The notes beneath the pieces were generated by a model, which was given only the letters and a program-made list of their open reading frames with translations, had not been told where the DNA came from and did not search any database. Both the position numbers and the translations under genes were made by a program. A stretch of DNA of 14,698 nucleotides from a virus. Below are positions 11,957-13,293 of the stretch, one piece after another (the stretch's first letter is position 1; every line of letters begins with the position of its first letter). The DNA is taken from the UHGV virus genome UHGV-0229026. One strand, given 5' to 3'.

Positions 11957-12760
11957 ATGCAGAGTTTAATGCCCCCGGTGAATACGCCGGATAAGTTATT
12001 TCATGATGGTGACCCGACTCAGGGAATTGAGGGAACCATCGTTACTGCTGAATTTATGAATAATCATCAGGCAGCAACACGTGATTTGCAGCAGGAGGTG
12101 ATTAACGTCCTTAAAGAGGCTGGCGTCACCCCTGACCCGGAAAAACAAAACCAGCTGGTTGAGGCGCTGACCTCGTTTATTGGCCAGAAAGTCCCGGATG
12201 CATCGCTGACGCAAAAAGGCGTAGTGCGGCTTAACAGTGCTGTTAACAGTGAATCAGAAACAGAAGCGGCTACACCAAAAGCGGTCAGGATTGCGATGGA
12301 TAACGCAAACGCCAGACTGGCAAAAGACCGTAACGGCGCAGACATCCCGAATAAACAATTGTTTCTGGATAACATCAGCGGTGTGCCAAAAGCGCGTAAG
12401 GTCAACAACATGCCCCTGACTTCGGATATCACCATCAACAACATCAGCGGCAACGCCGGAACGGCAACCCGGCTTCAGACGGCCCGCAGGATTAACAATG
12501 TGCTGTTTGATGGCAGTAGCGATATCACTATCAGCAGCACCGATTCTGGTGCAGTACGTGATTTCAGGTATACCAGCGAAGTGTTTCACAATCCCGGTGG
12601 TAACGAAATTTCCTGGGTATTTCGCGCGCCTTCAGGTTGTATTTTGTCAGGTATTAACGTTCAGGAAACTGGCAAGAGCTCTGCGGATAACATCGGCGGC
12701 GTGTATTACAAACAAACTCAGATTTATATCAATGGCGGATGGCGCACGGTATCCGGCTAA
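11957..12760 (+). CDS. Tail fiber protein (short; P2 H / Mu S-type conserved motif)
   Basis: 267-aa ORF; AGGAG SD 5 nt upstream of ATG. Contains the conserved tail-fiber motif DASLTQKGVVRLNSAVNSESETEAATPKAVRIAMDNANARL (compare P2 H: DASLTAKGFTQLSSATNSTSETLAATPKAVK) and a C-terminal ...YINGGWRTVSG resembling P2 H's ...YINGTWYNV end; followed by a Tfa gene. Confidence 0.8.
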   Translation: MQSLMPPVNTPDKLFHDGDPTQGIEGTIVTAEFMNNHQAATRDLQQEVINVLKEAGVTPDPEKQNQLVEALTSFIGQKVPDASLTQKGVVRLNSAVNSESETEAATPKAVRIAMDNANARLAKDRNGADIPNKQLFLDNISGVPKARKVNNMPLTSDITINNISGNAGTATRLQTARRINNVLFDGSSDITISSTDSGAVRDFRYTSEVFHNPGGNEISWVFRAPSGCILSGINVQETGKSSADNIGGVYYKQTQIYINGGWRTVSG

Positions 12761-12774
12761 TTAAGGAGAAAATA

Positions 12775-13293
12775 ATGGAACTCAGAAACGTCACGCGTTA
12801 TTACCCGAAAGAGATGCCTTATGGTGAAGGCATTCAGTATTTCCGCAGTGAAGACGGACAGGATTTTTATGAATCCATGGACAAATTCACGAAGAGATAC
12901 AAATTGTGCATTCACCCTGAAAGTGGCGTGATTTATTCAATGGCGGAAGACGTGTCCCGTCTTTATCCGACAGGTTTCACCATTGTGGAAGTTGATGAAC
13001 TGCCGGAAGGTTTTGGCATTGAAGCCAGTTGGTATTACAAAGACGGCGAAGTGCTGCCGGTTCCTGTTGATTATTCGCAACTGGCAGAAAAACAACGCCA
13101 GCATCTGCTGACTGAAGCAAAGGACATCACATCTGACTGGAAAACCGAGCTGGAGCTGGGCACCATCAGTGATGACGACAAGGCCCACCTGATGCAGTGG
13201 ATGGCGTATATCAAAGAGGTGAAGGCTCTGAATTTAAGTCATGTGAGTGATAAGGAGTCTTTTGATTTTATTCAATGGCCACAAAAACCATGA
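12775..13293 (+). CDS. Tail fiber assembly chaperone (Tfa; Mu U / P2 G-like)
   Basis: 172 aa from ATG 12775, with AAGGAG SD at 12763-12768; the longest-ORF start at 12739 overlaps the tail fiber gene and lacks an SD. Immediately downstream of the tail fiber gene; size typical of Tfa. Confidence 0.8.
   Translation: MELRNVTRYYPKEMPYGEGIQYFRSEDGQDFYESMDKFTKRYKLCIHPESGVIYSMAEDVSRLYPTGFTIVEVDELPEGFGIEASWYYKDGEVLPVPVDYSQLAEKQRQHLLTEAKDITSDWKTELELGTISDDDKAHLMQWMAYIKEVKALNLSHVSDKESFDFIQWPQKP

What the first reader, a model, noticed from the sequence alone, without database searches (positions are those of the whole stretch)
11957..13293. P2-H-type short tail fiber plus Tfa in a Mu-like backbone, with no inverted duplicate or invertase in the window
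The tail fiber carries the conserved motif shared with P2 H and other side tail fibers but is only 267 aa, and the locus has one fiber/Tfa pair on the + strand with no oppositely oriented S'/U'-type copies. Classical Mu has an invertible G segment controlled by Gin. Here host range appears fixed, or any invertase lies beyond the 3' edge.
Basis: partly seen in the sequence, partly recalled or inferred. Interest (0 to 1): 0.35.

Follow-up and report, generated by a model that had tools for sequence, protein, structure and literature searches.

The report
Non-invertible Mu-type fibre plus accessory adhesin
This is the ordinary, non-switching tail-fibre gene pair at the very end of a Mu-like E. 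coli prophage, but the same operon also carries an uncharacterised two-part module (a repeat tail on baseplate protein gp48 plus a lectin-like protein) that may be a second host-binding device.

Summary
Window 11957-12760 encodes a 267-aa tail fibre and 12775-13293 its Tfa chaperone. Each is single-copy, on the + strand, in a Mu-like late operon.

No invertase, crossover site or inverted S'/U' copy exists here. None lies beyond the 3' edge either. The prophage ends inside the window at 14512 (…GAAGTTACA), and 14513-14698 is E. coli chromosome. A near-identical complete 35-kb sister prophage has no gin or mom.

The fibre is a miniature Mu S rather than a P2 H. Its first ~142 aa match Mu's constant Sc part, and the homology stops exactly where Mu has gixL. 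The distal part is a mosaic cassette shared with another prophage lineage. Mu-like phages without a G segment are already known, so the finding as stated is ordinary.

Two further features were unexpected:
- gp48 (YmfQ) carries a rare 128-aa extension of seven 17-aa repeats.
- The gene after Tfa (13350-14405) encodes a confidently modelled two-β-sandwich protein.

These two features occur together in 37 of 39 loci examined, with the repeats on three different tail-anchor domains. That suggests a second, two-component receptor-binding device. This part is inferred, not shown.

The parts
10954..11517 (+). gp48 / YmfQ baseplate wedge domain (BW3), the subunit on which the Mu fibre docks
   Evidence: PF10076 Phage_Mu_Gp48, E=5.7e-30, aa 9-187. 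It is 94% identical to normal 190-aa YmfQ proteins. The role of gp48 comes from the Mu cryo-EM paper PMC11915804.
11518..11910 (+). C-terminal extension of gp48: seven imperfect 17-aa repeats (PLxINxxQxQ...; repeat starts at 11542, 11593, 11653, 11704, 11755, 11806, 11857), ending in PLVVNHNGLHFAVITEP
   Evidence: The 51-nt periodic direct repeat appears, and the repeat list. It is a clean ~440-bp insertion relative to TUM9812, which has a 190-aa YmfQ. dN/dS is 0.33 and 0.28. A homologous module sits on other anchor domains. PGAP labels the gene a pseudogene.
11957..12760 (+). Short Mu-S-type tail fibre, 267 aa. It comprises an Sc-like N-terminal part (aa 1-142, nt 11957-12382), the PF03406 motif (nt 12203-12325), a short shaft motif and a tip domain.
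   Evidence: Mu S structures 5YVQ (E=6e-25) and 8JU3 (E=4.3e-26), with a weak tip alignment at aa 194-266; φTE short tail fibre 9CUY tip, E=5e-14.
12363..12388 (+). Position equivalent to Mu gixL (the Sc/Sv junction). It is degenerate and not a crossover site.
   Evidence: The protein alignment ...DIPNKQLF|LDNISG matches Mu ...DIPNKPLF|IQNLGLQE. It matches Mu gixL at 12/26 positions, against 17/26 for the annotated relic site in 186 K.
12400..13293 (+). Mosaic cassette (distal fibre part plus Tfa) shared at about 97% nt identity with a different Mu-like prophage lineage
   Evidence: Hits H8-H24 start at query position 1501, which is window 12400. The context in E. coli 23CRST050 is shown.
12775..13293 (+). 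Tail fibre assembly protein (Tfa, Mu U-type), 172 aa
   Evidence: PF02413, E=4.6e-19; phrog_136, 2e-53; Mu U structure 5YVQ_B, E=4e-15; 26-31% identity to Mu U and U'.
13350..14405 (+). 351-aa protein of an uncharacterised family (phrog_8291), with TTG start and two β-sandwich (lectin-like) domains. Proposed distal partner of the repeat module.
   Evidence: No Pfam, NCBIfam or PADLOC hit. AF2 mean pLDDT is 89.8. Foldseek gives TM 0.60-0.68 to the MS-detected virion protein AchV4_0026 and relatives. It is linked to the repeat module in 37 of 39 loci. Only 17 clusters exist among 1.84 billion representatives.
14406..14512 (+). Right end (attR) of the Mu-like prophage, ending ...GAAGTTACA, with three CCCAGAA/TTCTGGG repeats (14438, 14467, 14489) that are likely transposase-binding sites
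   Evidence: Homology to sister prophages stops at 14512. The junction sequences are and the motifs. The same motif recurs at the left end of the sister prophage.
14513..14698 (.). E. coli chromosomal flank (intergenic, next to yghD/gsp in Nissle-type strains); not phage DNA
   Evidence: 100% identity over 186 nt to many E. coli chromosomes. GC is 0.30.

Best explanation
The interval encodes the last structural genes of a Mu-like transposable prophage: a shortened, non-invertible Mu-S-type tail fibre (267 aa) and its Mu-U-type assembly chaperone.

How the fibre is built and works:
- Its N-terminal ~142 aa are the homologue of Mu's constant Sc segment. By analogy with Mu, this part docks as a trimer on wedge protein gp48.
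- Homology to Mu ends exactly at the codon where Mu carries gixL. From there on, a short shaft and a Mu-S-like tip form a horizontally exchanged cassette that travels with its own Tfa.
- There is no gin, no gix pair and no S'/U' set. The prophage ends 107 nt after the next gene. Fibre specificity therefore changes by cassette recombination, not by DNA inversion.

A probable second device (inferred): the same operon likely encodes a second adhesion device that is always present. gp48 carries a C-terminal shaft of seven 17-aa repeats. The 351-aa lectin-like protein encoded after Tfa would attach to the last repeat of that shaft and serve as its distal receptor-binding part.

What is shown: gene identities, the absence of an inversion system, the prophage end, the mosaic joint, and the genetic linkage of the repeat module with the 351-aa family.

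What is inferred: physical attachment, presence in the virion and receptor binding. My confidence is about 0.95 for the fibre/Tfa/no-inversion core and about 0.55 for the accessory device.
For: Core:
- Pfam and PHROG assignments.
- Mu S homology over aa 11-170, E=8e-27, and single copies of fibre and Tfa with no Gin, Com or Mom.
- PDB matches to Mu S and Mu U.
- The gixL position coincides with the end of homology, and the mosaic joint starts at 12400.
- The right end is at 14512 with host DNA beyond it.
- The complete sister prophage has repressor, Ner-like HTH, MuA, MuB, GemA and Mor but no invertase.
- Sister copies sit at four other sites, including a plasmid.

Accessory device:
- The extension is a clean insertion onto an otherwise normal gp48. 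It is kept open and under purifying selection (dN/dS 0.28-0.33).
- Homologous repeat modules sit on diverged Gp48 domains, on lambda-Stf-type N-domains (PF08400) and on a P2-H-type N-domain (PF12571).
- In 33 of 39 loci the family gene follows the module's stop codon within about 0-30 nt. In the window lineage it lies 1.4 kb downstream in the same operon.
- In 23CRST050 it lies between gp48 and the fibre gene, inside the tail operon.
- Some module carriers are only an anchor plus repeats (202 aa), with no distal domain of their own.
- The type of the last repeat and the type of the family's N-terminus co-vary.
- The confident AF2 model superposes at TM 0.64 on AchV4_0026. That protein was detected in virions by LC-MS/MS and is encoded two genes after a short tail fibre gene.
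- No terminator-like site lies between Tfa and the gene.
Against: - No experiment or complex model links the extension and the 351-aa protein.
- gp48 is one copy per wedge in Mu, whereas Stf-type and P2-H-type anchors are trimeric. The same repeat module would therefore have to work in different stoichiometries.
- The 351-aa gene sits at the prophage end and has lower GC (0.465 against 0.567), which is the classic moron position.
- Sequence homology to the AchV4 virion proteins is not demonstrable (hhalign probability 0.2-22%).
- One locus (L009) has the family gene without a repeat module.
- Many of the 39 loci are near-identical, so only about 15 lineages are independent.
Confidence: 0.75

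Rival explanations
1. An invertible G-like segment exists, but its invertase and second crossover site lie just beyond the window's 3' edge.
For: Classical Mu, D108 and SfMu have gin immediately after the G segment. The fibre's N-terminal part is Sc-homologous.
Against: The prophage ends at 14512 and host chromosome follows. Four sister prophages in other sites end at the same base. The complete sister prophage has no Gin homologue at all (no hit up to the search cut-off of E=1). The gix-equivalent matches at 12/26, and there is no inverted repeat longer than 20 nt.
Confidence: 0.02
2. The locus is a deletion derivative of a Mu-type G segment. An ancestor had S/U-U'/S'-gin and lost the inverted half and gin, and the short fibre is what remained. 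This concerns evolutionary origin and is compatible with the present-day mechanism above.
For: Homology to Mu S stops exactly at the gixL position. The mosaic joint begins 11 nt after the gix-equivalent. 186 K keeps an annotated relic crossover site at the same place. A 17/19 direct repeat (12367-12385 and 12685-12703) overlaps the gix-equivalent.
Against: No remnant of S', U' or gin is present. The site is no more gix-like than coding homology would give (12/26). Several diverged Mu-like lineages share the short-fibre layout with com/mom but no gin. Other Mu-like phages such as KS10 and BcepMu also lack the G region (PMC2628397).
Confidence: 0.2
3. The 351-aa gene (13350-14405) is a cargo or moron gene, for example lysogenic conversion, exclusion or defence. 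It would be unrelated to the tail, and its linkage to the repeat module would reflect shared hitch-hiking next to fibre genes.
For: It is the last gene before attR. Its GC is lower than the backbone. It has no annotated function anywhere. In P2-like and lambdoid contexts it also lies at the prophage end.
Against: It follows the repeat-module ORF immediately in 33 of 39 loci, across three anchor families and three tail types. In 23CRST050 and L018 it sits inside the tail operon between gp48 and the fibre gene. It has no PADLOC hit, and inspection of the N-terminus shows no signal-peptide-like hydrophobic stretch. Its fold matches an MS-verified virion protein.
Confidence: 0.25
4. The gp48 extension is a non-functional read-through, and gp48 is a pseudogene as PGAP annotates it.
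For: PGAP flags the gene as 'incomplete, missing C-terminus' in all sister prophages. The extended form is rare, occurring in 7 of 5426 E. coli genomes. AF2 gives no confident fold for it.
Against: Only the last 3 residues of a normal YmfQ are replaced. The ORF stays open in a copy that is 92% identical overall and has a one-codon indel. dN/dS is 0.28-0.33. Homologous extensions occur on at least three diverged Gp48 types and on two fibre anchor domains.
Confidence: 0.08

Closest known systems
Phage Mu G segment: S/U and S'/U' fibre sets switched by Gin at gixL/gixR
   Same: The gene order gp47-gp48-fibre-Tfa is the same. The fibre N-terminus is homologous to Mu Sc (39.6% identity). The PF03406 motif and the sequence ...AMDNANARLAKDRNGADIPNK.LF are shared up to the gixL codon. 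The tip is Mu-S-like and the chaperone is Mu-U-like.
   Different: There is no gin, no gix pair and no inverted S'/U'. The fibre is 267 aa against 504 aa in Mu. There is no com/mom. The position after Tfa is occupied by an unrelated 351-aa gene, followed directly by the prophage end.
P2 H/G and 186 K fibre loci (non-invertible fibre plus Tfa; 186 K keeps a relic 'Mu-like inversion crossover site')
   Same: It is a single, fixed fibre/Tfa pair. It shares the PF03406 motif (70% identity to 186 K over aa 81-151). The mosaic boundary falls at the crossover-site position.
   Different: The N-terminal attachment domain is Mu Sc-type, not the P2 H type (PF12571 was not detected). The backbone is a transposable Mu-like phage.
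Mu-like phages without a G region (KS10, BcepMu)
   Same: These are transposable myoviruses whose tail module ends the genome and lacks an invertible segment (PMC2628397).
   Different: They have different hosts and fibre genes. No gp48 extension or lectin-like partner gene has been reported for them, and I did not examine them here.
T2-type gp38 adhesin on the gp37 fibre tip (from my own knowledge, as a functional analogy only)
   Same: In both, a separate protein encoded right after the fibre gene would supply the distal receptor-binding part. Mu U and other Tfa proteins are also reported to bind host cell surfaces (reference cited in PMC11915804).
   Different: There is no sequence or fold relationship. 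The partner here is a 350-aa double β-sandwich, and its carrier is a 17-aa repeat module that can sit on a wedge protein.
Casjensviridae distal tail proteins, e.g. Achromobacter phage AchV4 gp0025-0027
   Same: The whole-chain fold is similar (TM 0.64, Foldseek E=6.5e-15). Sizes are similar (333-377 aa). The N-terminus is similar (M.I..(L/M)(D/E)GF.Q). They are encoded just downstream of a short tail fibre gene, and gp0025 and gp0026 were detected in virions by LC-MS/MS.
   Different: Sequence identity is about 14% and profile comparison is not significant. These are siphovirus tails, and AchV4_0024 shows no PLxIN repeat module.

Membership tests
Mu S-type tail fibre | N-terminal part homologous to the constant Sc segment that docks on gp48 | tested here: met
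   tblastn gives 39.6% identity over 169 aa, E=8e-27. PDB structures 5YVQ and 8JU3 match at E=6e-25 and E=4.3e-26.
Mu S-type tail fibre | Phage_fiber_2 (PF03406) motif before the variable part | tested here: met
   E=5.8e-19, aa 83-123, full-length match to the profile.
Mu S-type tail fibre | C-terminal tip domain of the Mu S / Stf type that needs a Tfa | tested here: inconclusive
   The alignment to the Mu S tip is weak (aa 194-266, domain i-E=25). The match to the φTE short tail fibre tip 9CUY is clear (5e-14), as is the 78% identity to the Rac-SA53 fibre tip.
Mu S-type tail fibre | Gene lies after gp48 and is followed by a Caudo_TAP chaperone | tested here: met
   The gene order is shown.
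Caudo_TAP / Mu U tail fibre assembly protein | PF02413 domain and homology to Mu U | tested here: met
   PF02413, E=4.6e-19; 5YVQ_B, E=4e-15.
Gin/Din-type invertible host-range switch (Mu G, P1 C, e14 P) | Serine invertase gene adjacent to the segment | tested here: not met
   No Gin hit up to the search cut-off of E=1, in the window or the complete sister prophage. None is annotated.
Gin/Din-type invertible host-range switch (Mu G, P1 C, e14 P) | Pair of inverted 26-34-bp crossover sites, one inside the fibre gene | tested here: not met
   There is no gix match with up to 3 mismatches. The site-equivalent matches at 12/26. No inverted repeat is longer than 20 nt.
Gin/Din-type invertible host-range switch (Mu G, P1 C, e14 P) | Second, oppositely oriented fibre-distal part and Tfa | tested here: not met
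   Fibre and Tfa are single-copy, and there are no minus-strand hits.
Mu-like transposable prophage | MuA/MuB transposition genes, repressor/Ner, Mor/GemA | tested here: met
   These are annotated in the 99.9%-identical sister prophage. They lie outside the window itself.
Mu-like transposable prophage | Many insertion sites, with ends 5'-TG...CA-3' carrying repeated transposase sites | tested here: met
   There are five different flanks. The right end is ...TTACA and the left end is TGTGGGG..., with CCCAGAA repeats at both ends.
Mu-like transposable prophage | 5-bp target-site duplication | tested here: inconclusive
   In strain 54214 the flanks read AACTT|TG... and ...CA|ACTTC. A perfect 5-bp duplication would need the right end shifted by 1 nt.
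Tip-adhesin type two-component fibre (T2 gp38-like logic) | Adhesin gene immediately downstream of the gene for its carrier | tested here: inconclusive
   This holds in 33 of 39 related loci. In the window the fibre and Tfa genes intervene, although all lie in the same operon.
Tip-adhesin type two-component fibre (T2 gp38-like logic) | Physical attachment to the carrier's distal end, and receptor binding | not testable with these tools
No experimental data exist.

The most novel reading that the evidence does not exclude
The 17-aa repeat module and the 351-aa lectin-like protein form a previously undescribed, portable two-component receptor-binding device. It can be grafted onto any tail anchor: wedge protein gp48, the lambda Stf N-domain, or the P2 H N-domain. 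In this Mu-like phage it would give every virion two adhesins at once (a mini-S fibre and a gp48-borne adhesin). That is a constitutive alternative to Mu's Gin-driven either/or switch.
Probability: 0.45. Interest if true: 0.6.

Novelty: new variant of a known kind. Interest (0 to 1): 0.4.

Why it matters
As stated, the finding (a Mu-like prophage with one fixed fibre/Tfa pair and no Gin) is ordinary. It mainly illustrates that G inversion is the exception among Mu-like phages, and that fibre genes recombine at the old crossover position.

The useful yield is the by-product. A small family of 17 clusters among 1.84 billion representatives, all of them unannotated, is tightly linked to a repeat module that automated annotation mislabels as a pseudogene tail of gp48.

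If it is an adhesin system, three things follow:
- It would explain how short 'anchor-only' fibre genes in E. coli prophages work.
- It would add a swappable receptor-binding part for phage and tailocin engineering.
- It would correct a systematic annotation error.

Tried and rejected
- megablast of 10900-14698, and tblastn of the 351-aa protein, against 50,697 phage records gave no match. The element is known only as a prophage.
- NCBIfam and PADLOC gave no hits for any of the four proteins tested.
- Foldseek against the PDB gave only weak lectin and BoNT-HC type matches, TM 0.2-0.39. These serve only as a fold-class hint.
- AF2 of full-length gp48 was poor (mean pLDDT 48; extension below 40). 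It says nothing about the fold of the extension.
- The profile search with the repeat module found only 5 proteins because of the word index. Linkage was established instead by HMM scans of fetched loci.
- The genome-contig scan gave a single locus.
- hhalign of the family against AchV4_0025 and AchV4_0026 was not significant, so homology to the MS-verified virion proteins rests on fold alone.
- The target-site duplication could not be fixed to the base.
- A naive search for a terminal inverted repeat failed. The two ends share only the CCCAGAA-type motifs.
- Literature searches found no description of the gp48 extension or of the 351-aa family.
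Full report
**1. What is at the coordinates**

The window is the late (head-tail-baseplate) region of a Mu-like prophage. Pfam finds DNA_circ_N, Gp44-like hub, Gp45, GP46, Baseplate_J and Phage_Mu_Gp48 in Mu order.

ORF 11957-12760 (+, 267 aa) has a full-length Phage_fiber_2 motif (PF03406, aa 83-123, E=5.8e-19). It matches PHROG 1833 'tail fiber protein' at 3e-100.

ORF 12739-13293 is a Caudo_TAP tail fibre assembly protein. Its likely start is ATG 12775 (172 aa), which has an AAGGAG 7 nt upstream and is the start PGAP uses in sister prophages.

**2. No inversion system, in or beyond the window**

I ran a local tblastn with Mu S, U, U', S', Gin, Com and Mom, and with the window's own fibre and Tfa. 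It finds one fibre copy and one Tfa copy, both on the + strand. It finds no Gin at all (search cut-off E=1) and no credible Com or Mom match (the only hit is a 17-residue fragment at E=0.1). This holds in the window and in a complete sister prophage.
- The longest inverted repeat in 10900-14698 is 20 nt at 80%.
- The Mu gix sequence has no match with up to 3 mismatches.
- The best gix-like match anywhere in the window is 17/26.

The 3' edge question can be settled. Seven complete E. coli records carry this element at 99.6-99.9% identity, and in six of them the homology stops at window 14512 (…CCCAGAAAAAATCGCGAAGTTACA); in the seventh (JNE21-009) the alignment runs 3 nt further, which I take to be a chance match. 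Window 14513-14698 is 100% identical to an intergenic stretch of many E. coli chromosomes, next to yghD/gsp in Nissle 1917.

The sister copies are inserted at four other places:
- between carB and caiF (strain 54214);
- next to dtpB (RIVM_C036569);
- inside another prophage's tail genes (JNE21-009);
- in a 249-kb plasmid, where it interrupts a methyltransferase gene (AF34 plasmid 2).

In each case host DNA begins about 107 nt after the stop of the gene at 13350-14405.

The complete 35-kb copy in strain 54214 has repressor, Ner-like HTH, Mu transposase, MuB-type ATPase, GemA, Mor, lysis genes, terminase, portal and the tail genes. It has no invertase and no mom. Both ends carry CCCAGAA/TTCTGGG repeats and read TG…CA. 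The 5-bp target duplication is ambiguous by one base.

**3. What kind of fibre it is**

The PF03406 motif is indeed shared with P2 H and 186 K (70% identity to 186 K over aa 81-151). The N-terminal attachment part, however, is the homologue of Mu's constant Sc segment: 39.6% identity over 169 aa, E=8e-27, and matches to Mu S structures 5YVQ and 8JU3.

The alignment runs …AMDNANARLAKDRNGADIPNK(Q/P)LF and then breaks. In Mu the next codons (IQNLGLQE) are gixL itself.
- The window's equivalent, 12363-12388, matches gixL at only 12 of 26 positions. The annotated relic site in 186 K matches at 17/26.
- Eleven bases further on, at 12400, a stretch begins that is about 97% identical to a different Mu-like prophage lineage, whose fibre has an unrelated N-terminus.
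- The old Sc/Sv junction is thus still the mosaic joint, but it is not a recombination site for an invertase.
- The distal 125 aa comprise a short shaft motif and a tip. The tip aligns weakly with the Mu S tip and clearly with the φTE short tail fibre tip (9CUY, E=5e-14).
- The chaperone matches Mu U (5YVQ_B, E=4e-15).

Fibres of 263-301 aa are the rule in the related E. coli Mu-like prophages examined. Mu-like phages without a G region are documented, for example KS10 and BcepMu (PMC2628397). As stated, the finding is an ordinary member of a known kind.

**4. Two things next to the fibre that are not ordinary**

First, gp48/YmfQ is normally about 190 aa. That was the usual length among the 195 homologues found (of which the best 120 were listed). 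Here it is 318 aa.
- Only the last three residues of a normal YmfQ are replaced. A 128-aa extension follows, made of seven imperfect 17-aa repeats (PLxINxxQxQ…) and ending PLVVNHNGLHFAVITEP.
- Compared with strain TUM9812, which has a 190-aa YmfQ abutting the same 267-aa fibre gene, the extension is a clean ~440-bp insertion that brings its own spacer and ribosome-binding site for the fibre gene.
- PGAP annotates the gene as a pseudogene in every sister prophage.
- Even so, the reading frame stays open in a copy that is 92% identical and has a one-codon indel. dN/dS is 0.33 against that copy and 0.28 against a 45%-identical version.

Second, the gene after Tfa (13350-14405, TTG start, 351 aa) has no Pfam, NCBIfam or PADLOC match. 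It belongs to PHROG 8291, 'unknown function'.
- The family is tiny: 27 clusters at 90% identity, and 17 representatives among 1.84 billion proteins.
- At 90% nt identity or more, it occurs in 58 of 5426 complete E. coli genomes.
- AF2 gives a confident model (mean pLDDT 89.8) of two β-sandwich domains.
- PDB matches are weak, to legume lectins and the BoNT receptor-binding domain, at TM 0.2-0.39.
- Against predicted viral structures it superposes over its whole length (TM 0.60-0.68, E down to 6.5e-15) on proteins of Casjensviridae phages.
- The top match is the 352-aa 'virion structural protein' of Achromobacter phage AchV4. That is AchV4_0026, detected in virions by LC-MS/MS and encoded two genes after a short putative tail fibre gene.
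- The AchV4 paralogues share the N-terminal pattern M.I..(L/M)(D/E)GF.Q. Profile comparison is not significant, so this is fold similarity only.

**5. The two features are linked**

In E. coli 23CRST050, a different Mu-like prophage (com/mom present, no gin) has a strongly diverged YmfQ domain with a homologous seven-repeat extension. It is followed immediately by the 351-aa gene (96% amino-acid identity, about 98% at the nucleotide level), then a short fibre and Tfa.

In a Raoultella myovirus prophage, an uncalled ORF between Tfa and the family gene encodes a lambda-Stf-type N-domain plus five of the same repeats.

I scanned 39 loci that carry the family gene with HMMs of the module and of the family:
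- 37 loci contain a module-bearing ORF.
- In 33 of them, that ORF ends within about 0-30 nt of the family gene's start.
- In the window lineage (4 loci), the fibre and Tfa genes lie between the two.
- The two exceptions are one locus cut at the contig edge and one locus (L009) with a different Stf C-terminus.

The module's carriers fall into three anchor families: Gp48 (PF10076, at least three diverged types), prophage tail fibre N-terminal domain (PF08400), and the P2-H-type N-domain (PF12571).

Some carriers are nothing but anchor plus three repeats (202 aa) and have no distal domain of their own.

The type of the last repeat co-varies with the N-terminus of the partner across about 15 lineages. 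For example, GLHFAV pairs with KLESFRQIPA, GLSFAF with EGFCQIPANRE, and (I/L)WL(S/N)FAV with NSIILEGFRQI(V/A)ADE.

In one Mu-like lineage (L016) the order is fibre-Tfa-[Stf-N+repeats]-[family gene]-com-mom. There the pair occupies the very slot where Mu has S'/U'/gin.

**6. Most likely mechanism**

Shown: the genes, their order, the missing inversion machinery, the prophage end, the mosaic joint and the linkage.

Inferred from the Mu structure (PMC11915804): the mini-S fibre trimer docks by its Sc-like N-terminus on the fibre-docking loop of gp48. Its tip folds with the help of Tfa.

Inferred from linkage, architecture and fold: the gp48 extension is a short shaft, and its last repeat binds the N-terminal strand of the 351-aa lectin-like protein. 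That protein is then displayed at the baseplate periphery as a second, constitutive adhesin.

I put about 0.95 on the first part and about 0.55 on the second.

The main rival for the second part is that the 351-aa gene is a moron, given its terminal position and lower GC of 0.465 against 0.567. I give this about 0.25, because it does not explain the gene's position inside the tail operon in other lineages or its near-obligate adjacency to the repeat module.

A real difficulty is stoichiometry. gp48 is one copy per wedge, whereas Stf-type and P2-H-type anchors are trimers.

**7. Verdict**

The finding as written is confirmed, and it is ordinary. Its open alternative, an invertase beyond the edge, is refuted. 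'P2-H-type' should read 'shortened Mu S-type'.

The neighbourhood holds an unannotated, conserved two-gene module worth an experiment: virion proteomics of an induced lysogen, complex prediction, and deletion/host-range tests. Interest is modest overall (0.4). It would be higher only if the accessory adhesin idea is borne out.

Noticed in passing
window 10954-11910: PGAP annotates gp48/YmfQ as a pseudogene ('missing C-terminus') in all sister prophages. The ORF is in fact intact, at 318 aa. Only the last 3 residues of a normal 190-aa YmfQ are replaced, by a 128-aa extension of seven 17-aa repeats that is under purifying selection.
   Followed up: yes
window 13350-14405: A 351-aa protein with no annotation anywhere (PHROG 8291). 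It has a confident two-β-sandwich AF2 model, a tiny family, and almost always sits directly after a PLxIN-repeat module. Its fold resembles the MS-detected virion protein AchV4_0026.
   Followed up: yes
window 14406-14698: The Mu-type right end lies at 14512 (…GAAGTTACA), with three CCCAGAA/TTCTGGG repeats. From 14513 on the sequence is E. coli chromosome, intergenic near yghD/gsp. No complete E. coli genome in the collection has this exact junction.
   Followed up: yes
window 12367-12385 and 12685-12703: A 19-nt direct repeat, GGATAACATC(A/G)GCGG(T/C)GTG (17/19), lies inside the fibre gene. Both copies encode DNI(S/G)GV, and the first overlaps the gix-equivalent position. By rough estimate, about 0.04 such pairs would be expected by chance. 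Its meaning is unknown.
   Followed up: partly
window 11500-14512: GC falls from 0.567 in the backbone to 0.44-0.50 across the gp48 extension, fibre, Tfa and the 351-aa gene. This is consistent with a horizontally exchanged distal module.
   Followed up: partly
L052 (NZ_OZ547097.1, E. coli AF34 plasmid 2) and L051 (JNE21-009): Sister prophages are inserted in a 249-kb plasmid, where one cuts a methyltransferase gene, and inside another prophage's tail gene region. This suggests recent active transposition, including onto a potentially mobile replicon.
   Followed up: partly
L011 7036-7980 (Raoultella planticola): An ORF that was not called in the source annotation encodes a Stf-type N-domain, an Ala-rich segment and five PLVINRxQLQS repeats. 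It lies directly upstream of a family member, so such short 'anchor + repeat' genes are easily missed by gene callers.
   Followed up: partly
L007 7017-9091 (TUM9812) and L008 11458-11796 (23CRST050): Related Mu-like prophages carry a truncated 'prophage tail fiber N-terminal domain' pseudogene after Tfa. TUM9812 additionally has a DUF4376 gene there. The slot between Tfa and the right end is thus a variable second-fibre or cargo slot.
   Followed up: no
L002 junctions (E. coli 54214, carB/caiF): The flanks read AACTT|TGTGGGG… and …GTTACA|ACTTC. A perfect 5-bp target duplication would require moving the right end by one base, so the exact terminal base is uncertain by ±1 nt.
   Followed up: partly
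window 3453-4009: Two small consecutive ORFs (127 aa and 52 aa) lie just upstream of the tape measure gene. This is the usual place for tail assembly chaperones with a programmed frameshift. I did not examine them.
   Followed up: no
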